Source: an uncultured Candidatus Saccharibacteria bacterium
GTDB taxonomy: Bacteria > Patescibacteriota > Minisyncoccia > Phycocordibacterales > UBA9973
NCBI GenBank assembly: GCA_964631935.1
Contig: CAZWAV010000004.1
Location: forward strand, 9,179 to 73,178
Reading direction: 5' to 3'
DNA length: 64,000 nt
Shown here: positions 12,355 to 28,642 of the stretch, one piece after another
Numbering within the stretch: position 1 is the stretch's first letter
Layout of the letters: the number at the start of each line of letters is the position of its first letter
Notes under the pieces: generated by a model
Database searches by the model: none
What the model was told of the DNA's origin: nothing
The model's input: only the letters and a program-made list of their open reading frames with translations
Made by a program: the position numbers and the translations under genes

Positions 12355-12422
12355 AGTGCGTATTATACTACTTTTTAAAATGGGTCTAATAATTACATAC
12401 CTGGATTAACCTGTTAACAATG

Positions 12423-13968: not shown

Positions 13969-14427
13969 ATGAATCAAGACCAAATCAAAAAAATCATAGA
14001 AGACATATTTACACATACAAACTGTACTATATCAAAATGTGAATTTTCTGATGACCATGGAATGCTCTGGTGTATGATTGATACCCCTGATTCTCGTTTT
14101 ATGATTGGCCGTGACGGTGAGACATTGCGATCTCTTAATCATATTGTCCGAAAGATGGTTGAAAAAAATTCTTCCGAAGAAGAAGTTTCTAAAATATTTA
14201 TTGATGTAAATGGTTACCAAAAGAAACGTTTTGATAACCTAAAAACTATTGCTCATATGATGGCTGAACGCGCTCGTTACTTTAAGAGCAATATTGAAAT
14301 TGATCCAATGCCAGCTTTTGAGCGTCGGATTGTTCATATGTTCTTGGAGGGAGCTCCTGATATAAAGACAGAATCTGAAGGGTACGGACCTAATCGTCGG
14401 GTTGTTATAAAATACTTAGTTAGCTAG
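13969..14427 (+). CDS. khpB: Jag/KhpB RNA-binding protein (KH + R3H)
   Basis: R3H region IEIDPMPAFERRIVHMFLEG...GPNRRVVIK, last gene of the rpmH-...-jag cluster. Its 3' end overlaps the convergent gene by 12 nt. Confidence 0.8.
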   Translation: MNQDQIKKIIEDIFTHTNCTISKCEFSDDHGMLWCMIDTPDSRFMIGRDGETLRSLNHIVRKMVEKNSSEEEVSKIFIDVNGYQKKRFDNLKTIAHMMAERARYFKSNIEIDPMPAFERRIVHMFLEGAPDIKTESEGYGPNRRVVIKYLVS

Positions 14428-15774
14428 ATCAAGGCTCCACAGTGTGGAGTCTTTCTTGTTGATGAAGAATAGTTGTGTCTCTGTTTTGTTTAAGAATAAA
14501 TGAGTTGCATCAACAGGACTCTCCCCTATTGAGTCCGCTAATGTACTAATTTGTCCTGTTAAAATATTTATTTTTACAAAATTATCATTGAATGATACCA
14601 ATCCTTGATACCATGAATCTGGGTATTCTCCGTTCGGGATATCTCTAGGGATCGCACAATACACTATAGTGTTGTTTGTGCTCCAAACACATTTTTCAGG
14701 TAGACTATATAAATTTAACTCTTTTACTGCATGTTTTTTAACATCAAGTATTCCGAGTTTTGGATTTCCTGTAACTGTTGAACTATATATAACCGATGCC
14801 CCATCTGTACTTGCTAGTGTTGTAAGCCCAGGTACCCCACCGAATATCTTAGTCAAAACCCCATTAGCGATGTTTAAGCTGAATAAGTCACCTTCAACCG
14901 ACGATGAAGCTTTTGTAGTTAGATATACATTTTGACTTGTCGGCCATTGTGATAGCCACTCAGATAGAGATGAACTAAACACTTGCGTTTTCTTTGTATC
15001 CTTAAATGATCTAGTTGTACCTATAACTCCACTGAATGTTTTTGTTAAATAGAAGAACTTTGTTTTATCTGGAGAAATACTAACGTCTAGAATATCTGAA
15101 GGAAGGAATTCCCCGTTTGTGCTTCCAAGACTAGCCAAGAAGCTTGTTATTGTTTTTCCATCTATTGAAAGGTATCTATATAAGACACTTGAAGCAGTTC
15201 CATCAAAAAATGCTTCATATATGCTCGGTATTGTTGAATTAGAAACTGTACCTATGGTTTTTGTGTCTAAATACATTTCGTCGATATGACCAGTAACGCG
15301 CTCAACATATCTTATAGCTGGCACTATTTCAAATTTAGGAGCTGGTGGCTTTTGAGGAGTGGTTTTTCCTTTTGTTGCTGGTGTTGTTTGAGTTGGAGTA
15401 ACAGCTTGGCCTGGATTTTCTCCACCTGGTAGTGCTATTAGAGTTTCAGGTAATGGTCTTGTGTCTTCAAAAAATGTAGCCCCTGAAACAGCAAAATTAG
15501 TTATTTGATGAAATTTATTTACTTGTGGGGTGCTTGGTGTATTATTATCTTGCGTAATTGGTGTGCCTGTATCTCCTGTACTATTATTTGTATTTCCACC
15601 TGTATTACTGTCTTGTTGTGTAGTCCCCCCACCTAAGAATGGTTGGTATCCAGAGTTTGTTCCAGAGTTTGTAGTTGGTGTGCTTGTCTTTGTGTTATAA
15701 AAATATAAACCAAGCATGATTGCTCCGACGAGAATGAATACAGTTATAAAAATTATTTTTGTTTTTCTTGGCAT
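14416..15774 (-). CDS. Membrane-anchored surface protein: N-terminal TM, T/N/G/Q-rich disordered linker, C-terminal globular (beta-rich?) domain
   Basis: TM IIFITVFILVGAIMLGLYFY; a low-complexity segment of about 100 aa (TSTPTTNSGTNSGYQPFLGGGTTQQDSNTGGNTNNSTGDTG...); last gene of the long minus-strand array. Confidence 0.6.
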   Translation of the reverse strand: MPRKTKIIFITVFILVGAIMLGLYFYNTKTSTPTTNSGTNSGYQPFLGGGTTQQDSNTGGNTNNSTGDTGTPITQDNNTPSTPQVNKFHQITNFAVSGATFFEDTRPLPETLIALPGGENPGQAVTPTQTTPATKGKTTPQKPPAPKFEIVPAIRYVERVTGHIDEMYLDTKTIGTVSNSTIPSIYEAFFDGTASSVLYRYLSIDGKTITSFLASLGSTNGEFLPSDILDVSISPDKTKFFYLTKTFSGVIGTTRSFKDTKKTQVFSSSLSEWLSQWPTSQNVYLTTKASSSVEGDLFSLNIANGVLTKIFGGVPGLTTLASTDGASVIYSSTVTGNPKLGILDVKKHAVKELNLYSLPEKCVWSTNNTIVYCAIPRDIPNGEYPDSWYQGLVSFNDNFVKINILTGQISTLADSIGESPVDATHLFLNKTETQLFFINKKDSTLWSLDLAN

Positions 15775-15787
15775 GAATTTATTTAAT

Positions 15788-17380
15788 CTAACCGTTTATT
15801 TTAGTGGAATTATTATTTATACCAGTTAGATTAACTTTAAAGTATTGCGCAGCTGCAAAAGCATTATCATAAGCATTCAATATTATACCACTAGCTTTCT
15901 TGTATTTATCAAATACAGCTCTACTTAACTGGAATAATCCTGAGTAACCATATGAATTAACGGTTGTTACTGATGCTTGGCTTGTACAACCACCAGCTGA
16001 CTCTATTCTGCAAACTGCTCGGAGTTCAGTAATGCCCACTCCTGTTTCAGTTGATACTTTATTTAATTCAGTATCTATAAATGATGGTATTTGAGGGCTT
16101 GTTTTCTTTTTTGCTGCTTCCATTTTTGTCGCCCAGTACTTCAAGAAGTTATTTGGTGTTAGTACGCTAGTCCCAATTGTATTTTGTGCACTGGTTGGGT
16201 TGAAATTTGTCTGCATATTTCTGTTAATGTTTGCTTTTGTGAAAGGATTATTTGTTGGCACACTGGTATAACCTTTTTTTGCTGACCATAGTATTGCTGA
16301 AGCACCAGCCACTCCTTGTTGGTGACCCAAGTATCCTATAAATGCTGAATCGCCATAACTAGAAGGAGTAATAGTTATATTTGAAGTATCAAAGCTATCG
16401 ATATTACTCATAAAATCTGGATCATCAGCACGATCACGTACTACTATGTCTGCGTCTACCTGATCAACAGTTACCCCATTCTGTCCTGTCAGAGCTGGAT
16501 TTATGGTGTTTAATATGGCAAAGGCACCAAGAGCAATAAATAACCCAAGAATGGCTGCCATAATTTTCCCTTTTGCCTCTGTCTTACCAAAAACTGATTC
16601 TTCTCCCATGTATTGAATACCGCCAATAACGATCATTATCACAGCAAGTGCTGCACATATTCCTATACCCATCTTAAATATTATATTTAGATAATCACCA
16701 AGACCTGTAGATGTTTTAACTTCAGTCAATGTACCTATTGGAGCAAGAAGTTTATATGTCTGATCTATTACAGGAGTTTGAGTTGTAGGGTCAACATTTA
16801 CTACAGGATTATCGTCATTACCATCTGGTGTTAAACTTAAAAATACTGCATTATCTAAACATAATCCATCACACTCGTAATAGATGTGACCATCAGTTTC
16901 CCCTGCTGAATTGTACAACACGTTATCACCCTGTCTTATATAGAAAAACAAGTCACAGTCATATCCAATAGCCCCAGTCAGTCCCGCTTCACACTCCTCC
17001 TCACCTAGCCTAATTCTCATTGTAAAATTGTCAGTAGGTATGTCCAGTGGCCTCCTTAGTAAATGAGAATCTTGTAATGCATCGTCACAATTAATTCCAC
17101 AAGTATCTGCCTCGAAAACCGTAAGAGTTATATCTGACTTATCTGTACAATTTTTTGTTTTGACTTTTATATTGGCAGCTGTCTTACCGTCCCTATAGAA
17201 TGTATCTTTGTTTTGCTCTCCTGCTGGGACCCATATTGCCGAGAGAACAACGCAATCATCTGCTGAAACAGTGCTTTTATTTATCTGCGCACTACCTTTA
17301 CCATTAATAACAATACCAAAAGGAACAAAAAGGTTTGTAATTATAAGTATAGAGATTATGTATAGAGATAGTTTCTTCAT
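15788..17380 (-). CDS. Secreted/membrane protein with Cys-rich N-terminal domain, a pilin-like double hydrophobic hairpin, and a C-terminal lytic transglycosylase (SLT, VirB1/CwlT-like) domain
   Basis: Signal peptide MKKLSLYIISILIITNLFVPFG. Two adjacent TM helices (GIGICAALAVIMIVIGGIQYM ... IMAAILGLFIALGAFAILNTI). SLT-like catalytic region VCRIESAGG...GYSGLFQLS (ES...GLxQ pattern). Confidence 0.55.
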   Translation of the reverse strand: MKKLSLYIISILIITNLFVPFGIVINGKGSAQINKSTVSADDCVVLSAIWVPAGEQNKDTFYRDGKTAANIKVKTKNCTDKSDITLTVFEADTCGINCDDALQDSHLLRRPLDIPTDNFTMRIRLGEEECEAGLTGAIGYDCDLFFYIRQGDNVLYNSAGETDGHIYYECDGLCLDNAVFLSLTPDGNDDNPVVNVDPTTQTPVIDQTYKLLAPIGTLTEVKTSTGLGDYLNIIFKMGIGICAALAVIMIVIGGIQYMGEESVFGKTEAKGKIMAAILGLFIALGAFAILNTINPALTGQNGVTVDQVDADIVVRDRADDPDFMSNIDSFDTSNITITPSSYGDSAFIGYLGHQQGVAGASAILWSAKKGYTSVPTNNPFTKANINRNMQTNFNPTSAQNTIGTSVLTPNNFLKYWATKMEAAKKKTSPQIPSFIDTELNKVSTETGVGITELRAVCRIESAGGCTSQASVTTVNSYGYSGLFQLSRAVFDKYKKASGIILNAYDNAFAAAQYFKVNLTGINNNSTKING

Positions 17381-17383
17381 ATA

Positions 17384-18379
17384 TTATAGATTGAGTTTTA
17401 AATCACCACTCACCTTCTGATACAGAGTACTAAGATTTTGTAATACTAAATTTATGGTTGCATATCCACCTCGAGCTGTCGGATGTACAGTCAATTGTGT
17501 TTTCTTGGACGGAGTTTGAATATCCTTTCCATTTATCTTCCAACTATACGTAAAATCATTTTCATTGCCCTTTAATGCTAAGAAGTAAGGCTCAGCAACA
17601 ATTGTTACCTCCTCCTCTGTAATAGATGCCTGATTATCTAGTGCTTGATTATAAAGAGTACCTTCTGTTGGGGATTTTTTATAGAATAAAATCTTTGGTT
17701 TTACTATTGGAACCTCTATTGTATTTGTCGCGCTGTATTGACCATCTATAGATTGAGCATTTACTGTTACCGTCTCATTGTTGTTTAACTCACTATTTTG
17801 GAATACATAAGAATCTTTATTGTACCCAGAAGCGCTCTGAACAGTATTATTCTCAGCTTTCCAAGTATACGTTATATTACCTTTTCCTTGTTTTATGATA
17901 TTTGTATTTGGAACAGCAACAACTTTTATTAAACCTTCAGCTGAAGGAAATGATTTACCGCGATAAAAAGGAGGAGTATATGAGTCTACCCCTTCCCATA
18001 TAAGTTCAACTTCTGATGGATTAATAGCAATTCTTTTGTTTATTTTATCTAAAGAGCCTGGAATATTTATTACTACGTCTAGTATTGTAATATTGTTTGG
18101 TCCTAGAGTCTTAAATGAGTAGCTTGTTTTGCCGTAACCTGAAAGGACAATATTTGATCCATTTTGCCACTGTATCATTGCTTTGTTTAGGTCTGTGGCA
18201 TAACTTGTTAGCGTTACAGTCACGTCCTGATATGGTTGTGGATTATCTGGAATTGTAGTTACAGAGATATCGCTTTCTTGAGGAGTAATTTCATTTTCAG
18301 CCATGGAGACCCTGGCTACATAAAAGATACCAAGCATAATGATCAAGCTTAACAATATTTTTACTCGAGAATTAGTCAC
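17384..18379 (-). CDS. Secreted protein with repeated Ig-like/beta-sandwich-looking segments (T4SS-associated surface protein candidate)
   Basis: Signal peptide MTNSRVKILLSLIIMLGIFYVARVSMA. Repetitive composition (about 90-aa periodicity by eye). Tightly coupled between the VirB4 and hydrolase genes. Confidence 0.6.
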   Translation of the reverse strand: MTNSRVKILLSLIIMLGIFYVARVSMAENEITPQESDISVTTIPDNPQPYQDVTVTLTSYATDLNKAMIQWQNGSNIVLSGYGKTSYSFKTLGPNNITILDVVINIPGSLDKINKRIAINPSEVELIWEGVDSYTPPFYRGKSFPSAEGLIKVVAVPNTNIIKQGKGNITYTWKAENNTVQSASGYNKDSYVFQNSELNNNETVTVNAQSIDGQYSATNTIEVPIVKPKILFYKKSPTEGTLYNQALDNQASITEEEVTIVAEPYFLALKGNENDFTYSWKINGKDIQTPSKKTQLTVHPTARGGYATINLVLQNLSTLYQKVSGDLKLNL

Positions 18380-18439
18380 GTATATATTATACGTTAATAG
18401 GGCTACCTAAACAACTTATATAAGGTTTAAATAGTGGAT

Positions 18440-20278
18440 TTAGCTAGAAGCTTCTGAGCTAGCCAAATCATCCTTAGCTTTCTTTATCGCAAGTATTTGT
18501 GATGGGTCGGAGGTTATGATCTGGTCCTCAGTGTATGAAGCTATTGTCTTTACTGCCACGTGTTTGAGGCCAGCGAAGAATATACCCTCTCCAACGTTTG
18601 CTTCTAGGAGTAGATATTTCTCTTCATCTGTTAGGTTAAATGTTTTCTGTAATACATCAACAGTTGAAGGCGACTGCTTTAATAGAAGTTGGATAGAAGA
18701 GTTTGTCACAATAGGCACTCCGTATGGGCTTTTCATAAAATCGCCGACATCTTGAGTAATAGTGGCAAGCCCTAGATAGTATTTACGTCCACGTTTAGCT
18801 ATTGAATATAGGAAAGAAGCAGTATCTTCTGATTTCATCATCCACCACGCCTCATCAACGACAAGTAGGCGTTTGCGAATGTTCTTTCTTATCGCATTCC
18901 ATATATAGTGAGTGACTATGTACATTGCCACAGGTTTCAACTCATCTTCCATGTCACGTACTGAAAAGACTACAAATTTACGATTTATATCCACATTTGA
19001 TGGCTGGTTTAGGAATGATGACCATGATCCGTGTGTGAATTTTGCTAAGCGCTGTATAAGTGAACCACTCCCCTCCATACCAGCAAGAACCATTTCAAAG
19101 TCTGTTAGAAGTGGTGGTTCAATATTTGCAAAGTTTGATTCTGAAGTAATATCTTTAAGCGCATAAGTCTCAGTAATAGCTCGGTCAATAATAGAATCTT
19201 CTTCTGGGGTTAAACCTCCAAGCATAATGCGGAATAAGCCAACTAAGTTTATGGTGTTAGCACGCAAGACATCGGCAGGAGTTTCGTCAGAACTTGGTAT
19301 TGGTAGATCAAATGGATTAATATGGTGGTCAGAAGAAAGAGCAATATTAAAATATCTTCCACCAACTGCTTCTGATAAATATTCATATTCACGTTCAGGG
19401 TCAATCACAATAACCTCTGTGTCGAACATTAGAGTACGAATAATTTCAAGCTTGGTGGCATATGATTTACCAGCTCCTGAAGTAGCAAATGTAATTGAGT
19501 TATAGTTTGGAAGAGAGAATCTGTCAAATATTATAAGGCTAGAATTGTGACGATTAACACCATATAGTATTCCTTTATTAGACGTTAAGTCAAAAGATAC
19601 GAATGGAAATAGACTAGAAAGTGGCTCAGTATTGAGCTTCTGGTGAATGCCCAAGAGGTCAGTGCCTAAAGGAATAACACTCTTGAATGCTTCGTCTTGT
19701 TGGAATAATGCTGGTTTTAGATATATGAGCTTTGATTCAAGTAGAGATTTTATTTCACTTTCAATTTTAAATAAATCATTCTCACTATCAGCATATACTG
19801 TAATATAAAGACCAACATCAAACATTTTCTCTTGAGCCTGCATAAGATTATCACGTAAGCCCTCTAGGTCCTGATAAGCTGTATCGAGCATCGGATCACG
19901 GACAAGACCTTTTGATTCTCTTATTGAAATCTGACTTTGAACTTCAGCAACTTTCTTTTGAAAAGAACGAAGCACATCTCCTGTATCTATAGGGTGTATA
20001 AAAATAGATACATCAAAAACTTTATCAAGATTGATAATTGGTGAGAACCAGTTGTCTGTCAGATACCTAGGGTAGGATATAACGAAAAATGTACGAGCAA
20101 TTTTATCTCCCAGGTTTAAACCTTTTGGGGTTATTTGTAGAGCCGAAGGAGCGATAATGTCTTGGAGTTCAAGAGTCGCTGCTTTATAAATCTCAGATGG
20201 GATAACAGGCATAACCATACTCTTTGGTTTATTGTTTGTATTACTATCCCCTCCAAACATTTTTGAAAATATAGACAT
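18440..20278 (-). CDS. VirB4/TraE/ConE-family type IV secretion ATPase: middle and C-terminal ATPase parts
   Basis: Walker A TSGAGKSYATK. Walker B LLVVDEAWWMM (the DEAW motif characteristic of the VirB4/TraC family). No N-terminal TM helices, which argues against VirD4. N-terminal IAPSALQITPKGLNLGDKIARTFFVISYPRYL resembles Gram-positive VirB4 homologues (recalled, not searched). Confidence 0.75.
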   Translation of the reverse strand: MSIFSKMFGGDSNTNNKPKSMVMPVIPSEIYKAATLELQDIIAPSALQITPKGLNLGDKIARTFFVISYPRYLTDNWFSPIINLDKVFDVSIFIHPIDTGDVLRSFQKKVAEVQSQISIRESKGLVRDPMLDTAYQDLEGLRDNLMQAQEKMFDVGLYITVYADSENDLFKIESEIKSLLESKLIYLKPALFQQDEAFKSVIPLGTDLLGIHQKLNTEPLSSLFPFVSFDLTSNKGILYGVNRHNSSLIIFDRFSLPNYNSITFATSGAGKSYATKLEIIRTLMFDTEVIVIDPEREYEYLSEAVGGRYFNIALSSDHHINPFDLPIPSSDETPADVLRANTINLVGLFRIMLGGLTPEEDSIIDRAITETYALKDITSESNFANIEPPLLTDFEMVLAGMEGSGSLIQRLAKFTHGSWSSFLNQPSNVDINRKFVVFSVRDMEDELKPVAMYIVTHYIWNAIRKNIRKRLLVVDEAWWMMKSEDTASFLYSIAKRGRKYYLGLATITQDVGDFMKSPYGVPIVTNSSIQLLLKQSPSTVDVLQKTFNLTDEEKYLLLEANVGEGIFFAGLKHVAVKTIASYTEDQIITSDPSQILAIKKAKDDLASSEASS

Positions 20279-20279
20279 A

Positions 20280-20933
20280 TTATTGTAGTTTTATCCCCTG
20301 ACTAATATCCCCTGGGTTGAATGTCTTATAGAAAAGCTCGACAACTTCTTCTGTATTTAATTGAGAACTACGTACACCTAAACCTCCTAGTCCTGAAATT
20401 ATAACCCCGACACGCTGATCGAGCTGACTGCGCTTCTCCTCAAAGTCGGCTAAGTCTATAGCTTTTTTAGTATCTTCTATCTGCTTTTTAGGGCTTGTAG
20501 ACCCCATGATTTTATCAAGCATTCCGTCGCTTGATTTTAATATTGTCTGACTATATGGTACGACAATAAAAAATGTCTTTGTCATAATGTTCACTTCGTC
20601 GGTGAATGAACGGATAAAATCTATATATTCTTTAGTCTGTATTTTCAATAGCTTTTCCGTCTGCTCTTTTTCTCGAGCTTCAAGCATCATCAGATATGGT
20701 CTAATGTCTAATCTACGTGATTGGACTACTATTTGAGTTGAAAAATCAAGACCGTTTAGAAAAGATTGGAATTGATTAATGATAGCTGTTTGCTCTTCAG
20801 AAGATTTAAGAGAAAGATTTATTGATGATGCTATAAGCACAGCACGAAGGCCACCATCTTTTAGAATAATGACACCATTGCGAACTTCTTTAATTGGTAC
20901 GAACTCTTGTGCTGCACGAGCATTAATAGCCAT
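20280..20933 (-). CDS. VirB4 N-terminal domain (CagE/TrbE/VirB-type) as a separate ORF; possibly a split or frameshifted VirB4
   Basis: FVPIKEVRNGVIILKDGGLRAVLIASSINLSLKSSEEQTAIINQFQSFLNGLD matches by eye the VirB4 N-terminal consensus (ddgvlltkdGslgavi...d.esl..eel..l...l). Its TAA stop is 1 nt from the downstream ATG (TAATATG). Length 217 + 612 = 829 aa, the size of full-length VirB4/ConE. Confidence 0.6.
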   Translation of the reverse strand: MAINARAAQEFVPIKEVRNGVIILKDGGLRAVLIASSINLSLKSSEEQTAIINQFQSFLNGLDFSTQIVVQSRRLDIRPYLMMLEAREKEQTEKLLKIQTKEYIDFIRSFTDEVNIMTKTFFIVVPYSQTILKSSDGMLDKIMGSTSPKKQIEDTKKAIDLADFEEKRSQLDQRVGVIISGLGGLGVRSSQLNTEEVVELFYKTFNPGDISQGIKLQ

Positions 20934-20940
20934 AAGACAA

Positions 20941-21360
20941 TTATATCATATTAGTATCATTTTCTTTTTCTTGGACATCTAAACTCCAAGCTAAATCTTT
21001 TAGTGAACTTGAAGACGTCATAGGGACGATTGAAGTTGTTTGTGGAGTTACTTCTTCTTTGTTCTTATCGCTTGGTTTTACAAGGCGTTGCTTCCAAATG
21101 TATAGTTTACTTGAAATACTATAATTTATAGCTGCCTGGAGATAGTAAATGAAAGGTTTATTGTTGATTTTATAGAAAGTTAAAAGACCAGTGAGTCCAG
21201 CTACGGGAATTATTATGAAAATACTTATCCAAAATGGAAGTAATCTGTAAGCAATGAATATCATTCCAGCACCACCGACTAAATATACGAATTGGCGAAA
21301 GGTAAAAGGACCAAAGAGTTTATCTTCTATGTCGATAAATTGTGGAACCTTAAATTGCAT
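20941..21360 (-). CDS. VirB3/PrgI-like small membrane protein (TM hairpin) immediately upstream of VirB4
   Basis: 139 aa with a central hydrophobic hairpin LVGGAGMIFIAYRLLPFWISIFIIIPVAGLTGLLTFY. The position mirrors VirB3-VirB4 and PrgI-PrgJ arrangements. Motif evidence is weak. Confidence 0.45.
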   Translation of the reverse strand: MQFKVPQFIDIEDKLFGPFTFRQFVYLVGGAGMIFIAYRLLPFWISIFIIIPVAGLTGLLTFYKINNKPFIYYLQAAINYSISSKLYIWKQRLVKPSDKNKEEVTPQTTSIVPMTSSSSLKDLAWSLDVQEKENDTNMI

Positions 21361-21379
21361 AGATATATTATATCACGAA

Positions 21380-22459
21380 CTATTCTATTGCCTCATGATA
21401 AGGATCATGAGCTTTTGGAGTAGGAGCAGAATCTGCTTTACTTTCTGGGGAACCTCCCTGCATCTTTGGGATAGAATGATCACTAACTACAGTTTTACTA
21501 ACTGTAGATTGATTTAATTTATTCGAAAGCATGTCTATACCAGACTCCATAAGCAAAATATTATCCATAGGAGACATTTTCTTTTCTTTTTCTGTTACAG
21601 GTGGCACGGGAGATTCTTTTTTATCCATCATTTCAATTCCTGCACTCTTGTATATGTTTGATTCAGCCCCAGAAGCCTTTGTTTCTATTTTAACTTCTTC
21701 TTTTGGTTGAGCGATAATACTCTCTTGCATAGGGCTCTTTGCGTATGGAGGTAGAGGCACTTCATCGTCTATATCATTTGCAATTTGACTACCACTACCC
21801 CAATGATTTTTTAATATTTCTCTTATATTTTTTAAAATATCTTCGTTGACTTCGTTCGCAATCTCACTGATCTCTTCTTTTGGTTTAGCTATACTTGATT
21901 GTAATTCTGACTCGTACTTATCTGGGTGAATAATACTAAGCATAACCTTTGTTGTCGCTTCTTCTAGTGCACCCATCTCATTTATAGATAGCTTGTGCTT
22001 TGCTGCTATTGCATATAATGCTTTCTGGTAACCAGATTCACTGATAGCAAATTGTACTTCCTTTGGTAATTTTAGGAATCTCTCGTCTAATTTTTGAACA
22101 CCCCCGTATTTCTCCTCTGCGATATCTATAGCATTTTTTTGGAATGTATTAGTTAGTTGAGGTCGGATAGATCCTAATACTGTGGTATTTATTTCAGTAA
22201 TCATCTTCAGTAAATTTTCTGTAGGCATCGATATCTCATTTTGTAGATTTTTTTCATATTCTTCCTCGTCTACAATACCAAGCATTACCAATGTTGTTTC
22301 CGTACCAAGGGTCTGTATCTGTTCTTCGTTCAAGCTATACTTTTTACTTATATCTCCCAATATATCCATCCACTTCATAGATGAAAATACAGTCTGCACT
22401 TCTGATGGAAGTTTAGAATAGTAGAGCGCTATTTGTTGTTGTAGTTGTGTTTGATCCAT
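21380..22459 (-). CDS. Cytoplasmic hypothetical protein with an internal tandem duplication of an approximately 55-aa unit
   Basis: YSKLPSEVQTVFSS...LGTETTLVMLGIV is repeated as FLKLPKEVQFAISES...LEEATTKVMLSII. No TM helices. Acidic S/P/K-rich C-terminus. Confidence 0.6.
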   Translation of the reverse strand: MDQTQLQQQIALYYSKLPSEVQTVFSSMKWMDILGDISKKYSLNEEQIQTLGTETTLVMLGIVDEEEYEKNLQNEISMPTENLLKMITEINTTVLGSIRPQLTNTFQKNAIDIAEEKYGGVQKLDERFLKLPKEVQFAISESGYQKALYAIAAKHKLSINEMGALEEATTKVMLSIIHPDKYESELQSSIAKPKEEISEIANEVNEDILKNIREILKNHWGSGSQIANDIDDEVPLPPYAKSPMQESIIAQPKEEVKIETKASGAESNIYKSAGIEMMDKKESPVPPVTEKEKKMSPMDNILLMESGIDMLSNKLNQSTVSKTVVSDHSIPKMQGGSPESKADSAPTPKAHDPYHEAIE

Positions 22460-22469
22460 AATTTAAATT

Positions 22470-25166
22470 TTAATGATGTCCTCCCCCACCGTGATCATCA
22501 CCACCTTTTCCATGACTCTCTTCAACCTTTACTGTAACCTTTGCGCTTTTCATTGCTTCGGTTATTGTATGGCCTATATCTTTCAAGAAATCATTTTGTC
22601 CCGATCCATGGTTTACTCCACTACCCTTAAGCCCTGTACGTACTCCCATAGCAATTCCAGCAATTAACCCAGCACTAGCTTTTGTAAATAGACCCTCTCT
22701 TTTATCTGTCTTTGCTTGAGAAAGGTTTCTTGCGTCATAACTACCTTTATTGGATTGTGCAAAAACTCTATCTGCTCCACTAACCTGCTGTTTTGACTTG
22801 TCTTGTAATTCATTAAATTTCCTGCTCGATTCTTTATCTGTTGAAGTTTTCAATATTGCGTTAAAGTCAACATTCAATTGGTCCTCAATCTTTTTCTTGC
22901 CTGCATCTGTCAAAGCACCACTACCATCTACGTCTCCGCTTGCACGTGCGTTTGGATGACTTGCGACTGCCATAGAGACACGGTTTCTGTTTGCTGCTTT
23001 ATATCCACTCTCCCCCCCTGCCACTTTCTGGCCATTTGTATCAATCAAATCTGCCTTACCTTGCTTAATATCAGTTTCAATCTCAGTTCTCTTCTCTTTC
23101 TTGAATGTTTCTTCTAGAGCGTGGACATCTGCTCCTGAAAGATTACTATCATTTACCCCCTTCAAATGATTCTTTTCTTTTAGTGAATCCCAATCTGATC
23201 GAGCTCTGTCAACGTCATGAATCTTTGATTGTTTTGCATTTAAATTACCCCCTAAACGAGTAAATACATTTGCCTTAACACCATTGTTTGCTTTGTACAT
23301 TTCCCATGTAGGCTTTATTCCCCCACTTCCTTTTTGTTTCTTTTCTTTTGCTCTCCAATCCTCTAGGTTTTTATTAAATTGTACTTTGTGCCCACCATAC
23401 TCTTTTGCCCCATCAGTTCTAGAAAGTGCGCCCATTCCTCTACCAACAATATTTCTTCCAGCAAATGCTGCTCCTAGTGCTGCTCCTCCAAGGGCAAGTC
23501 CTCCTACAGCTGCTATACCACCTGTAATAGATTGGCCAAGTTTTCCTGACATATCTTTGGCAATACTTTTTGCTTTCATTAATAGGACCATTATGAATAT
23601 AAAAGGTAAAATAATTCCTAAAATAAATTTAATTCCAGTCATTTGGGATACATCACCTAGTCCAAATCCTACTTGTATAAATTTAAGAATTAAATAGAGG
23701 AAGAATATAAAAATAGGCGCAAGAAATGCCAGACTTATAGTTTCTGGCCACCATTTTTTCCAGCCAACCATACCCATGTTTTGCATTGATGGCACAGTGT
23801 AACTAAAGAATGCTAGTGGAGCGAATATCATAGAAAACCATAATCCTATGGATCTAGCTACGAATATTAATCCAACTGATAAGAATACTATAAAGCCTAC
23901 TATGTTTATAGCACTAGCTAGTAGTGTGATAAGTATAAATCCGCCAACTCCGAGCCCTGAAGCTGTATTTTCAGTTGAAGCACTTCCTCCTGTAGATTTA
24001 TCTATGACACTTACTTGGTTCGCATTCTTAATAAGCATCTGAGGGTTAATCTTACTAACTATTGATTCTGAAATTGGCACAGTTCCATCTGCGCCAGCTT
24101 GGGCTACACCATTTTTTGTAACTTTAATCGCATCCGAAGTATAAAATACACGCGCAAGTATGTTTGAAGCATCAATAATAATCTGCGAGGCAAAGAGACT
24201 GAAATTTATAAGGAGTCCTATAATGACTACATTTATAATCATCTCTTTAGTTTTAAATCCGTGTATTGAGAGGATAGTAGCAAATGCTATGTAAAGCAAA
24301 ACGAATATAAAGAAAATATTACAGAAATCACGAATCAACCCCCAACCTTGAACTACAAAGTCTGATCTATATGATGTGTCTTGAATTGAGTAATTAAAAG
24401 TGGTGTCGAAAAACATTCCAGCAAGTCCGAAGATATAAGATGAAGGGACAAATACTACATAGTAAGCTAGCTGAGCAATACAACCAAGTATTGTTCCCCC
24501 ACCTGTAAGCCATGAATCAGCGATTCCACAGCTTGGCATGTATGAATCTGAATTTGTATCCTTTGCGATTTGCTGAGAAGTAGTATTTACTACCCCAGTA
24601 GCAGTTGTTTTTATCGGATATTCTAGAGGGCCTATTATCCCTTCTTCTTTATTTCCGTTATAGGCAAAGTATGTAAGATAGTAAGTTGTGCTTGCTGTGA
24701 GCCCGGTAACTGATATTGGCCATGATTCAGTGACAAAGTCAGCATTTGTATCTGAAGTCGTTCCGTCGCTGCCCAGGTCTAGTTTTCCGTGAGCAAGGAC
24801 TTGGGATCCTGTTGCTGGTTTTATATCACCTTCTGGTGGAGGGTTCGTATTATAATCATTTAAATATGCATTCGTGCTTGTGATTGAAGCTTTAATATTA
24901 TTGTAGTCAGGCATAGTAGCGCCCGGCTTATCTGAGACAAGATATATAAGTTTATGATGAGCAGTTTTTGCTCTTGTAATATTGAAAGCGAATTTAATTG
25001 AATTCTCTGTCGTGTTTTCTTGCGTTATGCCTATCGTCATTGATCCGGCTTCCGCAATAGATTTTTTGATTGCTGGTTTATTTACTGCGTTTAGTCCAAG
25101 AGTAAAAGGCGCGAATATATTCACCAGAATGAGAATTATGAGAATTGAAGGGAAGATTTTTTTCAC
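22470..25166 (-). CDS. Polytopic membrane protein, VirB6/TrbL/ConG-like candidate: signal peptide, FN3-like ectodomain, at least 6 TM helices, long Gly/Lys-rich C-terminal tail
   Basis: Signal peptide MKKIFPSILIILILVNIFAPF. FN3-like TASTTYYLTYFAYNG. Multiple long hydrophobic segments across residues about 230-560. The tail is rich in G/K/A/N and ends GGDDHGGGGHH. Confidence 0.55.
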   Translation of the reverse strand: MKKIFPSILIILILVNIFAPFTLGLNAVNKPAIKKSIAEAGSMTIGITQENTTENSIKFAFNITRAKTAHHKLIYLVSDKPGATMPDYNNIKASITSTNAYLNDYNTNPPPEGDIKPATGSQVLAHGKLDLGSDGTTSDTNADFVTESWPISVTGLTASTTYYLTYFAYNGNKEEGIIGPLEYPIKTTATGVVNTTSQQIAKDTNSDSYMPSCGIADSWLTGGGTILGCIAQLAYYVVFVPSSYIFGLAGMFFDTTFNYSIQDTSYRSDFVVQGWGLIRDFCNIFFIFVLLYIAFATILSIHGFKTKEMIINVVIIGLLINFSLFASQIIIDASNILARVFYTSDAIKVTKNGVAQAGADGTVPISESIVSKINPQMLIKNANQVSVIDKSTGGSASTENTASGLGVGGFILITLLASAINIVGFIVFLSVGLIFVARSIGLWFSMIFAPLAFFSYTVPSMQNMGMVGWKKWWPETISLAFLAPIFIFFLYLILKFIQVGFGLGDVSQMTGIKFILGIILPFIFIMVLLMKAKSIAKDMSGKLGQSITGGIAAVGGLALGGAALGAAFAGRNIVGRGMGALSRTDGAKEYGGHKVQFNKNLEDWRAKEKKQKGSGGIKPTWEMYKANNGVKANVFTRLGGNLNAKQSKIHDVDRARSDWDSLKEKNHLKGVNDSNLSGADVHALEETFKKEKRTEIETDIKQGKADLIDTNGQKVAGGESGYKAANRNRVSMAVASHPNARASGDVDGSGALTDAGKKKIEDQLNVDFNAILKTSTDKESSRKFNELQDKSKQQVSGADRVFAQSNKGSYDARNLSQAKTDKREGLFTKASAGLIAGIAMGVRTGLKGSGVNHGSGQNDFLKDIGHTITEAMKSAKVTVKVEESHGKGGDDHGGGGHH

Positions 25167-25233
25167 ACAATCTATTATACCAATTTTATTACCAAAACAC
25201 AGGCTATTTTGTGGAATCCTCGGATTAAATGTA

Positions 25234-26184
25234 TTACCAGATATTAAACATCAATTCATATAGACCGTAACCTGAAATGTATTCTGGTGATCCGCTGCCA
25301 GCAGTAGGATTCTGATAGTACGGATTATCTTTAATTTGTTTAGGTCCAGTGTAAGCAGGGTTGGCTTTCTGAGCTACGCAATCTTGGGTTAGTCTTGTTG
25401 CTTGAGTGATCAACTCTTGGTTTGTTTGGTTGTCGTAATCAAGTAAAGTTACATCATCGTCTATACGAAGAGTCGGTGATAATAAGTAATATTGACGAAG
25501 AAGTACAGCTAGCTGAGCCTTCTCTTCTTCTGTAAACTCCAGAGGATCATCTGGACACATGCCAGGGGTTGCTATAGCCACTGCGTCTTTTTTACGGCTC
25601 TCATTGTTCATATTTTTATCATAGGAAAGACTATTATTAGCATCAAAATCTGTGTGACAGCCTGGATCGTGAGTGTCCACTAGATTATCCGCGTCATTAT
25701 CTATGCCATCTGAACATTGCTCTAAGTTATTTGTTGAAGTAGTTGATGTGTCTACGTTACATGCTATGAGGTTACCATTCTGGTCATGACAGTCTGTATT
25801 GCTTGGTGACGGAATTGGATTAAATGGAGGAACTATTGAACCAGGGCCAATACCAACTACTGGAGCCCCTGTATTTGATCCTGTTGTACCGTTTGAATTG
25901 TTGCCAGTCCCTGTATTTGATCCTGTTGTACCGCCTACGTTGTCAGTATTTGAATTGTTACCAGTGTTTGTATTGTCTGTATTTGTTGTATCGACATTAT
26001 TTATACTAGTTGCATCTTTTTGTTTTGACGAGCCAAGTAATGGTGCAAAAATTTTACTGATAGTTGAATTTTTTGTACCAAATACACCACCATTTTTAAA
26101 TAGGAAATAACCAACTATCAAAAGTAGAAGTACTACGATAAATGTGATGATGAATGCTTTACTTTTTTTAGGGTTATTATCCAT
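25234..26184 (-). CDS. Membrane-anchored protein: N-terminal TM, T/N/G-rich repetitive linker, Cys-containing C-terminal domain
   Basis: TM AFIITFIVVLLLLIVGYFLF. Linker TNTDNTNTGNNSNTDNVGGTTGSNTGTGNNSNGTTGSNTG is encoded by a tandem DNA repeat. Six Cys in the C-terminal half. Architecture parallels the 14416-15774 protein. Confidence 0.6.
   Translation of the reverse strand: MDNNPKKSKAFIITFIVVLLLLIVGYFLFKNGGVFGTKNSTISKIFAPLLGSSKQKDATSINNVDTTNTDNTNTGNNSNTDNVGGTTGSNTGTGNNSNGTTGSNTGAPVVGIGPGSIVPPFNPIPSPSNTDCHDQNGNLIACNVDTSTTSTNNLEQCSDGIDNDADNLVDTHDPGCHTDFDANNSLSYDKNMNNESRKKDAVAIATPGMCPDDPLEFTEEEKAQLAVLLRQYYLLSPTLRIDDDVTLLDYDNQTNQELITQATRLTQDCVAQKANPAYTGPKQIKDNPYYQNPTAGSGSPEYISGYGLYELMFNIW
25860..26000. 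repeat. Imperfect tandem repeat (about 45-bp unit) inside a coding region, encoding a G/T/N/S-rich linker
   Basis: cctgtatttgatcctgttgtaccg...tttgaattgttgccagt recurs twice with variants. It shows up in the ORF track as repeated LLPVPVFDPVVP in a + strand shadow ORF. Confidence 0.5.
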
Positions 26185-26188
26185 AAAA

Positions 26189-28639
26189 TTATTGTTTTAT
26201 TATATCATTACCATTTGCTTGGATTTCTATCCATGTAACTTTTTCATTATCAAGACAGATTTGTGGCATTGGGGTTAAACCATCTGCAATTCTTCTTGTT
26301 TTACGACGGTTTTGGGCAGCTATAACAATGGTATTTACCTTGTCTTTAATAAAACCAAGTCTGTATATATTTCCACTCGCTTGAGCATAATTATCATTAG
26401 CGCTAATAATTGCCTTTGATATATCTTCTGCATCAGTAACTATGTTTTTGGTTAGATCAAGACCAGCTTGAGCCATAGGTAAGAATTTTGGATTTGGATT
26501 TCCTTCTGGGGTGAACTCAGTCAACATTGGGCTATTTATGCCGAATATTTCTTTTGACTTTATAACATACTCGTTGTAATTTTTTGTCGCTAAATCATTC
26601 CACTTTGTAATCTGTGCTTCAACATAAGCAGGATCAACAGCCCAGTGATCTGAAGAGAAAGTATAAGTCATATGAACAGTGTTCTTCGCGATCCAATAGA
26701 ATTCTTCATTTACTATTCTATCCCAAAGATTTCTAGCGTCATCAAAAACTTTTTTGTAGTCTGTAGGGTCTGGAAGAGATATCACATTATATGAGTGATC
26801 CAATCCTCCATTGAGCAATCCTCCTATTGCTTGGATACCATCACAACCAATGAAAGGACATTTGTCGTAGACATCCCTAATGTACTCAACTGAAACCCCG
26901 CTCAAATAATCAAAATAAGCATTCTTGGCACTATCTGAATTACTCTCCCAGTTGTAGTTTGGGCCTGGTATACAATAATCGAGTTCAGCAAGTTTCGGTA
27001 TGACCTTTGGAAGGATTGTTGTTGCTTTCTTTATAGAATTTAGATAATCTTTTTGTATTTGATATACGCCTCTTGTTTCTATTATATGATTTGGCACACC
27101 GACTTTCCACGTTGTCCCATCAAAGAAAGCTTTTTGTCCGGTAGTCCAATGGTGAGCACCTGCAAAAAGTTTTGTATCTCCAGCTACAGATACTGTGTAG
27201 TATTGATTTTTTGTTCCAGTACCAGGTGTAAGTTCTGGTGTATTACTATTTGCATCCCAAGCGCCGCCATTTATAGGTAATACATATTTATTACCTAAGT
27301 CTCTGGTCAAATCAAAAGGTGCGCCGTTTGTATTTGCGCTAACTTGACTACCAATAGCAGTACCAGAAGCAATGCTGTTACCTATAGCATCAACTATATT
27401 ATTTGAACCGAATCCACCAGATACTGGGTTGGTAAAATTATTATCTTTTGATCCCAGGCCTGATAATCCTTGGTTTTCAAAAGTGTTTATTAAAATGCTG
27501 AATAACGAATTTAATCCATCATTCAATGTTTTAGATAGCTCGATTTGGCGCTCTGGAGAATTTATATATGTGTCTATTTTAGTTTTTATAACACTTCCTG
27601 GGGTAACAGTCTCAAATCGTTTACATTTTGGTGATCCATCAGCATTTTGTGAATGACTTGGATCGTCGTCAGGGTTTGGCTTCTCATACTCTACACATTT
27701 CTTCTGGTCGAATACCCCACCGTTTCTAGATAATTCTGCTTGAGCATTGGCAACAGCTGAGTTCTTCTTTTTGTTTAGTTGTGCTGTAGCATCTACAGTA
27801 AATCCTAGAGGATTATTTTCTGAGTGTTGAGTGAAAGCAAGCCAACCATTCCATCCACCTTGGGTGAAATCTCTAGCAAAACTATCTGGAGTTGCGCCTG
27901 GAGTTAGATAGTTTGTTAGATCTTGTTTCATTGAGCCTAAGGTGTCCTTACCTGCCTTATATGCATTTATTTGTCCTATGGCATAATCACGACCGTATGG
28001 GTATGCGGTTGCATTTGCTGGATCTTTGAAAAGATCATTTTCTTTTTTAAGGATTGCTGTTGTTAGACTATCCATATAAGAATCAACATCACGTACATAC
28101 ATAGGGTCACCATTGAATCCCGTTGTAATCCAGTTCATAGTGTATTTGGTCATAGCAGTCAGCTGGTTTTTTACAAGGGTCGTAGCTATACCATTAAGAC
28201 AATTTTCTGTAAAAGCTTTTTTGTCTGCACTTGCTTGCTCTTTTTGCCCAGTTTCCAGTAAAAGATCTCCCAATGCAGCATCAACACCAGATACAGAATC
28301 TTGTTTTTTTGAATTTTGTTCTTGTTTCTGTTTGGTCTTTTCAGCTTTACTAGTAAGTTTTTTCTGAATAAATTCTGTCGTTACTTTTGAAACCTTATCT
28401 ACAATACCAGTACAGCCGACAAGAGACGTAAGAAGCCTACTGTTTATAATACCCTTTAGAGATACTTTATAAGGGCTATCAGAACCAAATTTATTTGGAT
28501 TGTCATAGTTAAGTCCTGTATTCCCCGCTAGCGCACTAGAGGGTATAAAAGCTTGCAGTAAGAATAAAGCAATGATTAGAGTAGATAGTGTTTTTTTAGT
28601 AATAGATTTCTTCATGAAAGTATATAAAGAGTATATCAT
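26189..28639 (-). CDS. Large secreted hypothetical protein (816 aa), Cys-containing; adhesin/tip-protein candidate of the T4SS-like module
   Basis: Signal peptide MKKSITKKTLSTLIIALFLLQAFIPSSALA. No TM elsewhere and no recognisable enzymatic motif. Confidence 0.65.
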   Translation of the reverse strand: MIYSLYTFMKKSITKKTLSTLIIALFLLQAFIPSSALAGNTGLNYDNPNKFGSDSPYKVSLKGIINSRLLTSLVGCTGIVDKVSKVTTEFIQKKLTSKAEKTKQKQEQNSKKQDSVSGVDAALGDLLLETGQKEQASADKKAFTENCLNGIATTLVKNQLTAMTKYTMNWITTGFNGDPMYVRDVDSYMDSLTTAILKKENDLFKDPANATAYPYGRDYAIGQINAYKAGKDTLGSMKQDLTNYLTPGATPDSFARDFTQGGWNGWLAFTQHSENNPLGFTVDATAQLNKKKNSAVANAQAELSRNGGVFDQKKCVEYEKPNPDDDPSHSQNADGSPKCKRFETVTPGSVIKTKIDTYINSPERQIELSKTLNDGLNSLFSILINTFENQGLSGLGSKDNNFTNPVSGGFGSNNIVDAIGNSIASGTAIGSQVSANTNGAPFDLTRDLGNKYVLPINGGAWDANSNTPELTPGTGTKNQYYTVSVAGDTKLFAGAHHWTTGQKAFFDGTTWKVGVPNHIIETRGVYQIQKDYLNSIKKATTILPKVIPKLAELDYCIPGPNYNWESNSDSAKNAYFDYLSGVSVEYIRDVYDKCPFIGCDGIQAIGGLLNGGLDHSYNVISLPDPTDYKKVFDDARNLWDRIVNEEFYWIAKNTVHMTYTFSSDHWAVDPAYVEAQITKWNDLATKNYNEYVIKSKEIFGINSPMLTEFTPEGNPNPKFLPMAQAGLDLTKNIVTDAEDISKAIISANDNYAQASGNIYRLGFIKDKVNTIVIAAQNRRKTRRIADGLTPMPQICLDNEKVTWIEIQANGNDIIKQ

Positions 28640-28642
28640 TTA

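What the first reader, a model, noticed from the sequence alone, without database searches (positions are those of the whole stretch)
18440..20933. VirB4 homologue split across two reading frames at a TAATATG junction
The 217-aa ORF (20280-20933) looks like the VirB4 N-terminal (CagE/TrbE/VirB) domain, and the 612-aa ORF (18440-20278) carries the middle region plus the ATPase. The upstream TAA stop is separated by a single nucleotide from the downstream ATG. The summed length (829 aa) matches full-length VirB4/ConE and places Walker A near residue 487, as in ConE. Three readings are possible: a genuine two-subunit VirB4 that is translationally coupled, a frameshift-inactivated gene, or an assembly or sequencing indel.
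Basis: partly seen in the sequence, partly recalled or inferred. Interest (0 to 1): 0.55.

Follow-up and report, generated by a model that had tools for sequence, protein, structure and literature searches.

The report
Natural two-gene VirB4 secretion ATPase
The motor ATPase (VirB4) of this ultra-small bacterium's type IV secretion system is encoded as two adjacent genes; this is a conserved arrangement already described for the group, not a frameshift or sequencing error.

Summary
On the minus strand, a 217-aa ORF (20280-20933) ends in TAA. One base later a 612-aa ORF (18440-20278) starts at ATG, in another frame.

The 217-aa protein is a TrsD/TraD-family protein. It is homologous in sequence and predicted fold to the first ~190 residues of VirB4. 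The 612-aa protein is the rest of VirB4. It enters the full-length CD1110 VirB4 model at position 183 of 752 and carries Walker A and B. A model of the two joined matches full-length R388 TrwK/VirB4 (TM 0.64/0.66).

Frameshift and assembly error are excluded. In 80 species-representative Patescibacteria genomes both ORFs are intact, with the stop and the restart at the same homologous positions. The spacer ranges from -4 to 288 nt, and all three relative frames occur. dN/dS is about 0.06 and 0.02.

pSK41 TrsD/TrsE is split at the same point. A sister group (Ca. Colwellbacteria-type) has the same protein fused (~790 aa).

TrsD homologues next to virB4 in Patescibacteria were already reported in Microb Genom 2025 (PMC12102498). 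The finding is therefore real but ordinary and already known. Translational coupling is plausible but not obligatory.

The parts
20941..21360 (-). PrgI/TcpE-family (VirB3-like) small membrane protein, 139 aa. It lies directly upstream; its stop is 7 nt before the start of the 217-aa gene.
   Evidence: Pfam PrgI PF12666 E 1.7e-10 and TcpE E 2.6e-5. A homologue lies directly upstream of the 217-aa gene in 78 of 78 related loci that have room for it.
20280..20933 (-). Subunit A: TrsD/TraD-family protein, 217 aa, equivalent to the detached N-terminal ~190 residues of VirB4.
   Evidence: NCBIfam hits: VirB4_plasma positions 104-237/894 (E 5e-10), TrsD 16-156/201 (E 3.3e-8), CD1110 2-139/752 (E 5e-6). 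AF2 model has pLDDT 82. The top 14 Foldseek PDB hits are all R388 TrwK/VirB4, prob 1.0. There are 7,596 homologues and the best 120 are all 215-218 aa. dN/dS is ~0.06.
20276..20282 (-). Junction TAA-T-ATG: stop of A, a one-base spacer (20279), start of B.
   Evidence: Sequence read directly. In 80 relatives the spacer is -4 to 15 nt in 65 loci and 38-288 nt in 15 loci.
18440..20278 (-). Subunit B: remainder of VirB4 (second half of the N-terminal region plus the ATPase domain), 612 aa.
   Evidence: NCBIfam CD1110 VirB4-like ATPase positions 183-732/752, E 1.9e-110, above the curated cut-off. Pfam P-loop_TraG E 1e-24. PDB 4AG5 VirB4 E 4e-38; TrwK 446-735 aligns to B 260-556.
19463..19486 (-). 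Walker A motif ATSGAGKS (B residues 265-272).
   Evidence: Translation. G, G, K and S are invariant in the alignment with 119 fused homologues.
18851..18868 (-). Walker B motif LLVVDE (B residues 471-476).
   Evidence: Translation. D692 and E693 of the concatenation are invariant.
14416..28639 (-). Surrounding compact minus-strand type IV secretion operon (11 tightly spaced ORFs), about 2 kb from dnaA (11002-12354). It includes a 530-aa protein with a T4SS pilin-like domain (15788-17380).
   Evidence: ORF list. Pfam T4SS_pilin E 3.9e-4 and DnaA domains. NCBIfam Mbov_0395 pilin-like E 1.5e-4. Neighbouring genes are conserved in 46-78 of 80 related loci, except the 816-aa gene (26189-28639), found in only 13.

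Best explanation
This is the chromosomal type IV secretion locus of a Patescibacteria (Paceibacteria/Nomurabacteria-type) bacterium. Its VirB4 ATPase is naturally encoded as two polypeptides. Subunit A (217 aa, TrsD/TraD family) is the first ~190 residues of a canonical VirB4. Subunit B (612 aa) is the rest, including the Walker A/B motor. The break lies in a variable, predicted-disordered linker between the conserved motifs ELFYxxYNP (A 199-207) and D(I/V)(I/V)AP (B 39-44).

Inferred mechanism: A and B associate non-covalently to rebuild the VirB4 protomer. That protomer oligomerises and docks on the VirB3-like PrgI protein encoded immediately upstream, and it powers assembly or transport by the secretion machine. 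Matched synthesis is favoured by tight linkage in one operon, with termination-reinitiation at TAA-N-ATG being plausible. Coupling is not essential, because relatives tolerate spacers up to 288 nt.

Shown: homology of each part, completeness of A+B, conservation of the split, and purifying selection. Inferred: physical A-B association, the docking role of A, and translational coupling.
For: (1) Complementary coverage of full-length models: A covers CD1110 positions 2-139 and B covers 183-732 of 752. B 260-556 aligns to TrwK 446-735, which leaves roughly TrwK 1-186 for A.
(2) Structure: the model of A alone hits only TrwK/VirB4 chains with prob 1.0 (ranks 1-14). The A+B concatenation, modelled with 119 fused homologues, gives pLDDT 79.5 and pTM 0.71. 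It matches full-length TrwK with TMq 0.64, TMt 0.66 and E 6.5e-27.
(3) Fused relatives: about 118 clusters of 775-807-aa proteins (Ca. Colwellbacteria and others) align end to end with A+B at ~50% identity. The join falls in a short linker. Fused P0235 matches TIGR00929 VirB4_CagE in one stretch, 17-750.
(4) Conservation of the split: in 80 of 80 species-representative genomes A ends at the same place (TAA 72, TAG 5, TGA 3) and B restarts with the conserved peptide M(G/S)(I/L)FSSLFG. Spacers are -4 to 288 nt and relative frames are 36/24/20. dN/dS is ~0.06 for A and ~0.02 for B. The PrgI-A-B gene order holds in 78/78 loci.
(5) Precedent: in pSK41, trsC, trsD (227 aa) and trsE (672 aa) follow in order, with a 14-nt gap between trsD and trsE. 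B aligns collinearly with TrsE from residue 17 to 9, E 2e-32. Both enter the CD1110 model at position 183.
(6) Literature: PMC12102498 reports 2,272 TrsD homologues in Patescibacteria, 1,664 of them next to virB4. It describes remote homology to the VirB4 N-terminus, essentiality in Ca. Southlakia epibionticum ML1, and loci often near dnaA.
Against: No direct evidence here that A and B bind each other. The concatenated AF2 model forces them into one chain, and its inter-domain geometry was guided by fused homologues. The profile of the A family has no sequence-level PDB hit. Pairwise A vs TrsD similarity is weak (E 0.001 over 48 aa), so the TrsD link rests on HMM and fold evidence. No Shine-Dalgarno core precedes B or any other ORF in the window. 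15 of 80 relatives have long spacers, so translational coupling is unproven. No function has been assigned experimentally to any TrsD protein (PMC12102498).
Confidence: 0.9

Rival explanations
1. Frameshift-inactivated virB4 pseudogene: a recent indel broke a single ~830-aa gene.
For: The two ORFs are in different frames with only one base between them. Fused ~790-aa versions exist in other Patescibacteria.
Against: All 80 species-level relatives keep both ORFs intact, with the stop and start at the same homologous positions. In 24 of them the ORFs are in the same frame, separated by a real stop codon plus spacer. Both genes are under strong purifying selection. B has its own conserved N-terminal peptide that is absent from fused forms. 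A and B are the most conserved genes of the cluster.
Confidence: 0.01
2. Assembly or sequencing indel in this window created an artificial split.
For: Single-base indels are common in some assemblies. Two apparently split relatives inside the fused clade (P0289, P0385) did turn out to be artefacts of scaffold gaps (runs of N).
Against: The same architecture occurs in independent assemblies from many projects: 7,596 homologues, with the best 120 all 215-218 aa, and 80 of 80 genome loci. The window has no N run or homopolymer at the junction.
Confidence: 0.01
3. Programmed frameshifting or stop-codon read-through makes a single fused VirB4 from the two ORFs.
For: The ORFs are adjacent and offset by one base. 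A TAA-T-ATG junction could in principle allow recoding.
Against: A conserved recoding signal would need a conserved frame relation and spacer. Instead the relative frames are 36/24/20 and spacers run from -4 to 288 nt. Some spacers hold a hairpin element or an entire GIY-YIG gene. No slippery heptamer is conserved in the junction sequences listed.
Confidence: 0.01
4. A is an independent accessory protein (TrsD) that merely descends from a VirB4 N-terminus. It now does something else and does not complete B.
For: TrsD has its own family and no assigned function. In Gracilibacteria, TrsD homologues are reported away from virB4 (PMC12102498). Some A homologues carry 100-220-aa disordered C-terminal tails.
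Against: B lacks exactly the region that A supplies. Fused relatives join the two collinearly at ~50% identity. A-B adjacency holds in 80/80 loci. The TrsD homologue is listed as essential, along with other T4SS genes, in Ca. S. epibionticum (PMC12102498).
Confidence: 0.07

Closest known systems
TrsD-homologue plus VirB4 pairs of the Patescibacteria T4SS clade (Quinonero-Coronel et al., Microb Genom 2025, PMC12102498)
   Same: Same phylum and same gene pair, next to a PrgI/VirB3 homologue and VirB2-like pilin genes. The locus is chromosomal, near dnaA, and has no relaxase nearby. The window's locus is one of these.
   Different: Nothing substantive differs. The paper treats TrsD as a separate component with 'remote homology to the N-terminal portion of VirB4' and no function. 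In the passages I searched (terms 'split', 'fused', 'fusion') it does not state that the partner VirB4 lacks that portion, nor that some lineages carry the fused form.
TrsD/TrsE of Staphylococcus plasmids pSK41/pGO1. TraD/TraE of pIP501 would be the equivalent pair, judging from the NCBIfam family name and my own recollection; I did not test it.
   Same: Same gene order: VirB3-like trsC, then trsD (227 aa), then a 14-nt gap, then trsE (672 aa). TrsE and B are collinear from their N-termini. Both enter the CD1110 VirB4 model at position 183. A hits the TrsD model at E 3.3e-8.
   Different: It sits on a conjugative plasmid with a relaxase and a VirD4 coupling protein. Sequence identity is very low (A vs TrsD ~21% over 48 aa; B vs TrsE 22%). 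A scores 33.6 bits against the TrsD model's cut-off of 200, so A is a distant relative and not a member by NCBI's threshold.
Fused ~790-aa VirB4 of Ca. Colwellbacteria-type Patescibacteria (P0235, P0271-P0389)
   Same: About 50% identical to A+B over the full length, with the same domains. PrgI lies upstream and dnaA nearby.
   Different: It is a single polypeptide. A ~25-aa linker replaces A's 10-aa tail plus B's ~38-aa head.
Canonical single-chain VirB4 (R388 TrwK, PDB 7O41/8RTD; Thermoanaerobacter VirB4 C-terminal domain, 4AG5)
   Same: Same overall fold when A and B are joined (TM 0.64/0.66). The ATPase domain is 27% identical to 4AG5.
   Different: It is one chain of ~800-823 aa from a diderm or plasmid system. 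Identity to TrwK is only 13-15%.

Membership tests
VirB4 family T4SS ATPase (A+B together) | P-loop ATPase domain with Walker A and Walker B, homologous to the VirB4/TraC/CD1110 families | tested here: met
   B scores 370 bits against NF045971 CD1110 (cut-off 325), E 1.9e-110. Motifs ATSGAGKS and LLVVDE are present. 4AG5 matches at E 4e-38.
VirB4 family T4SS ATPase (A+B together) | Complete N-terminal region preceding the ATPase domain | tested here: met
   B alone is not complete, since it starts at CD1110 position 183 and VirB4_plasma position 291. A supplies positions 2-139 and 104-237 respectively. The joined model matches full-length TrwK with TMt 0.66.
VirB4 family T4SS ATPase (A+B together) | Encoded within a T4SS gene cluster next to a VirB3-like gene | tested here: met
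   A PrgI-family gene lies directly upstream. A pilin-like domain protein lies downstream. Synteny holds in 78/78 loci.
VirB4 family T4SS ATPase (A+B together) | ATP hydrolysis, oligomerisation, and requirement for secretion | not testable with these tools
   Needs biochemistry or genetics. The only indirect support is the reported essentiality of the homologues in Ca. S. epibionticum (PMC12102498).
TrsD/TraD family (NF041427) for subunit A | Score above NCBI's curated cut-off for the family model | tested here: not met
   A scores 33.6 bits against a cut-off of 200 (E 3.3e-8, model positions 16-156 of 201). pSK41 TrsD scores 227.6 bits. A is a distant homologue, not a member by that threshold.
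TrsD/TraD family (NF041427) for subunit A | A ~200-230-aa stand-alone protein encoded between the VirB3-like gene and a VirB4 that lacks its N-terminal ~180 residues | tested here: met
   Window order is PrgI-like (139 aa), A (217 aa), B (612 aa). pSK41 order is trsC (135 aa), trsD (227 aa), trsE (672 aa). The break point is the same.
Patescibacteria-clade T4SS (PMC12102498) | Chromosomal virB4 with TrsD, PrgI/VirB3 and VirB2-like pilin homologues, near dnaA, in a Patescibacteria genome | tested here: met
   Homologues are named Patescibacteria, Paceibacterota or Nomurabacteria. dnaA is at 11002-12354, with PrgI and a pilin-like domain protein in the cluster. I did not place B in the paper's VirB4 tree.

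The most novel reading that the evidence does not exclude
The break between TrsD-like A and VirB4 B is one ancient fission at a permissive linker. It would be shared by descent between pGO1/pSK41-type Firmicutes plasmids and the ancestor of the Patescibacteria T4SS, with the fused Colwellbacteria-type proteins being secondary re-fusions. On this reading the free N-terminal subunit is a separately dosed or exchangeable adaptor for VirB3 and membrane docking, with B's lineage-specific N-terminal peptide MGIFSSLFG serving as its docking handle. It would not be a neutral split. My evidence shows the same break point and both architectures within the phylum. It does not root the tree or test binding.
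Probability: 0.25. Interest if true: 0.4.

Novelty: already known. Interest (0 to 1): 0.2.

Why it matters
For annotation, these two ORFs should not be flagged as a pseudogene or merged. The 217-aa 'hypothetical protein' can be named a TrsD-like VirB4 N-terminal subunit. For biology, the Patescibacteria T4SS is reported to be essential for epibiotic growth (PMC12102498, citing Wang et al. 2023). It helps interpret mutants and design structural work to know that its motor is a two-chain VirB4 in most Paceibacteria but a single chain in Colwellbacteria-type relatives. This is an incremental clarification of a published observation, not a new kind of system.

Tried and rejected
(1) Pfam on A gave only a sub-threshold Nup54 hit. 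The precomputed domain PF26593 carried by all homologues is not in the Pfam copy I could scan, so I could not name it.

(2) A profile of the A family against PDB sequences found nothing. The link to solved VirB4 needed a fold comparison.

(3) Two 600-aa 'split' proteins at 77-88% identity to the fused clade (P0289, P0385) looked like recent fissions. Both turned out to be artefacts of runs of N in scaffolds.

(4) I looked for a Shine-Dalgarno site for B inside A's 3' end. The G-rich CAGGGGA lies about 15-19 nt upstream, too far to count, and no ORF of at least 150 aa in the window has an SD core. An SD-based coupling argument was therefore dropped.

(5) I searched the window for the inverted-repeat element seen in relatives' spacers and found none.

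(6) The pELF plasmid paper (PMC13492992) and Guglielmini 2014 (PMC4027160) say nothing explicit in their main text about TrsD as a VirB4 N-terminus.

(7) NCBIfam and Pfam gave no assignment for the neighbouring 331-, 359-, 452-, 816- and 898-aa proteins.
Full report
OBSERVATION. The ORF table lists 20280..20933 (-) 217 aa and 18440..20278 (-) 612 aa. The minus-strand junction reads ...CAGGGGATAAAACTACAA TAA T ATG TCT ATA..., a stop, one base, then a start in a different frame. The coordinates and the TAATATG description are exact. Walker A (ATSGAGKS) is at residues 265-272 of the 612-aa protein, which is 482-489 of the 829-aa concatenation. Walker B (LLVVDE) is at 471-476. I call the 217-aa product A and the 612-aa product B.

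WHAT EACH PART IS. B is a VirB4-type ATPase that lacks its N-terminus.
- It scores above NCBI's cut-off for the CD1110 VirB4-like family (370 bits, E 1.9e-110), but it aligns only to model positions 183-732 of 752.
- It aligns to 291-881 of 894 of the Mbov_0397 VirB4 model.
- Pfam finds P-loop_TraG, AAA_10 and DUF87.
- Against PDB sequences, B hits the Thermoanaerobacter VirB4 C-terminal domain (4AG5, E 4e-38). B 260-556 aligns to TrwK 446-735, which leaves roughly TrwK 1-186 unaccounted for.

A fills that hole.
- It matches CD1110 positions 2-139 (E 5e-6) and Mbov_0397 VirB4 positions 104-237 (E 5e-10).
- It also matches the TrsD/TraD family model at positions 16-156 of 201 (E 3.3e-8), which is well below that model's cut-off.
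- Pfam's CagE_TrbE_VirB model does not detect A.
- An AlphaFold2 model of A, built from 58 stand-alone homologues, has mean pLDDT 82. Its 14 best Foldseek matches in the PDB are all R388 TrwK/VirB4 chains (prob 1.0, TM ~0.5 on the query). The probability then drops to 0.2 or less.

A+B IS A COMPLETE VirB4. A search of 1.84 billion cluster representatives with A found mostly 200-250-aa stand-alone proteins, plus two full-length proteins of 797 and 898 aa. In these, the A-like region runs straight into a B-like region. Searching with the 797-aa protein found about 118 clusters of 775-807 aa, several of them named Ca. Colwellbacteria. All carry PF26593 plus the ATPase domains. The A+B concatenation aligns with them end to end at about 50% identity.

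The break falls in a variable linker between two conserved motifs, ELFYxxYNP (A 199-207) and D(I/V)(I/V)AP (B 39-44). The linker is about 25 aa in most fused forms and about 135 aa in one. In the window it is A's 10-aa tail plus B's ~38-aa head. The fused P0235 matches TIGR00929 VirB4_CagE in a single stretch, 17-750. An AF2 model of the concatenation (pLDDT 79.5, pTM 0.71, residues 227-252 disordered) superposes on full-length TrwK/VirB4. The scores are TM 0.64 (query) and 0.66 (target), with E 6.5e-27. One caveat applies: the single-chain modelling and the fused MSA presuppose that the two parts pack together.

NOT A FRAMESHIFT AND NOT AN ASSEMBLY ERROR.
- A has 7,596 homologues in the 5.8-billion-protein set. 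The best 120 (79-95% identical) are all 215-218 aa.
- In 80 loci, each from a different GTDB species representative (Paceibacteria/Nomurabacteria-type MAGs), A always ends at the homologous position. The stop is TAA in 72, TAG in 5 and TGA in 3.
- In all 80, B restarts with a conserved peptide, M(G/S)(I/L)FSSLFG.
- The spacer is -4 nt (ATGA overlap) in 3 loci, 1 nt in 19, 2-15 nt in 43, and 38-288 nt in 15.
- The relative frame of the two ORFs is +1 in 36 loci, 0 in 24 and +2 in 20.

A frameshift, an indel artefact or programmed recoding cannot produce that pattern. Both genes are under strong purifying selection. Against the closest relatives, NG86 dN/dS is ~0.06 for A and ~0.02 for B, with dS saturated at about 2. 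A and B are also the most conserved genes in the cluster, at median 75% and 89% identity against 35-65% for their neighbours. The PrgI-A-B order holds in 78 of 78 loci with room upstream. Two apparent splits inside the fused clade (P0289, P0385) are artefacts of runs of N in scaffolds.

CONTEXT AND LIKELY MECHANISM. The pair sits in a compact minus-strand operon (about 14416-28639), with gaps of 1-67 nt between genes. A PrgI/TcpE-family (VirB3-like) gene lies 7 nt upstream of A, and a 530-aa protein with a T4SS-pilin-like domain lies downstream. dnaA is about 2 kb beyond the end of the operon.

PMC12102498 states that VirB3 anchors VirB4 to the membrane. As I recall the R388 structure (Mace et al. 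2022, not checked here), that contact involves the VirB4 N-terminal region. I therefore infer that A is the VirB3- and membrane-proximal module of VirB4. I infer further that it binds B non-covalently to rebuild the protomer, and that operon linkage keeps the two in step.

Termination-reinitiation at TAA-T-ATG is plausible but unproven. No ORF of at least 150 aa in the window has a Shine-Dalgarno core. Many genes instead carry TATAAT 2-7 nt before the start codon. B has a TACAAT formed by A's last codons. One in five relatives has a long spacer.

COMPARISON WITH WHAT IS KNOWN. The arrangement is published. Quinonero-Coronel et al. (Microb Genom 2025, PMC12102498) report the following.
- TrsD was the most abundant T4SS component they retrieved in Patescibacteria, with 2,272 homologues, 1,664 of them next to virB4.
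[quoted passage not shown] - The homologue in Ca. Southlakia epibionticum ML1 is listed as essential.
- The loci often lie near dnaA.

The prototype is pGO1/pSK41. In pSK41 the order is trsC (135 aa), trsD (227 aa), a 14-nt gap, then trsE (672 aa). B aligns collinearly with TrsE from its N-terminus (residue 17 to residue 9, E 2e-32). B and TrsE both enter the CD1110 model at position 183, so the break point is the same.

My analysis adds three points that the passages I searched in that paper do not state. First, the partner VirB4 lacks exactly the region TrsD supplies. Second, the two together give a full VirB4 fold. Third, a Colwellbacteria-type group carries the fused protein. These are clarifications rather than discoveries.

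VERDICT. The pseudogene and artefact readings are rejected. The feature is an ordinary member of a described system, so novelty is 'already known' and interest is 0.2. The most novel reading still open is a single ancient fission shared with pGO1-type plasmids, followed by re-fusion in one Patescibacteria lineage and a distinct adaptor role for the free subunit. I give that about 0.25 probability and modest interest if true.

Noticed in passing
Related loci, A-stop/B-start spacer: L017:2441-2566, L021:1863-1984, L026, L035, L038, L039, L065 (~120 nt); L028:6649-6931, L032, L046 (~285 nt): In 10 of 80 species, the spacer between the two VirB4 genes holds an inserted element bounded by inverted repeats CCCGTTAGA(A/G)...(C/T)TCTAACGGG. 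The short form has no ORF and folds into a long hairpin (z -4.9). The long form encodes an 82-aa GIY-YIG nuclease (Pfam E 5.7e-17). In L021 and L017 the first 5 nt of B (ATGGG, ATGAG) appear duplicated on both sides, as with a target-site duplication. It looks like a small mobile element that repeatedly lands at, or has persisted at, this junction. It is absent from the window.
   Followed up: partly
window, upstream of start codons, e.g. 28640-28650, 25167-25182, 21361-21375, 20934-20948, 18380-18394, 17381-17391, 12355-12370 (minus strand): Many genes carry an exact TATAAT 2-7 nt upstream of the start codon. This holds for 10 of 46 ORFs of at least 150 aa, against about 0.5 expected from a 1.2% background. 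None has a GGAG/GAGG/AGGA core at -16 to -4. This suggests largely leaderless or otherwise non-Shine-Dalgarno initiation in this genome.
   Followed up: partly
P0171, P0192, P0166 and other 300-440-aa homologues of A: A subset of stand-alone TrsD-like proteins carries long, low-complexity C-terminal tails rich in P, A, G, Q and T (100-220 aa). One fused VirB4 (P0239, 898 aa) has a similar ~135-aa insert in the linker. The break point therefore tolerates large disordered insertions.
   Followed up: no
window 22470-25166, 26189-28639, 21380-22459, 17384-18379, 14416-15774 (all minus strand): Five operon proteins of 331-898 aa get no Pfam or NCBIfam assignment. Four of them are conserved in 58-73 of 80 related loci; the 816-aa one is found in only 13. 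These are candidates for the VirB6-, VirB8- or VirB1-like and surface components of this T4SS.
   Followed up: no
window 25234-26184 (-): This 316-aa protein has a weak, sub-threshold match to the 'acidic double-disulfide repeat' model (NF033662, E 2.9e-8, 33 bits against a cut-off of 41). It may be a secreted or surface protein within the T4SS operon.
   Followed up: no
L022:2338-2620: In one relative (a 5.2-kb contig) the B reading frame is interrupted after 91 codons, while A is intact. This could be an assembly error or a genuine pseudogene in that MAG.
   Followed up: no
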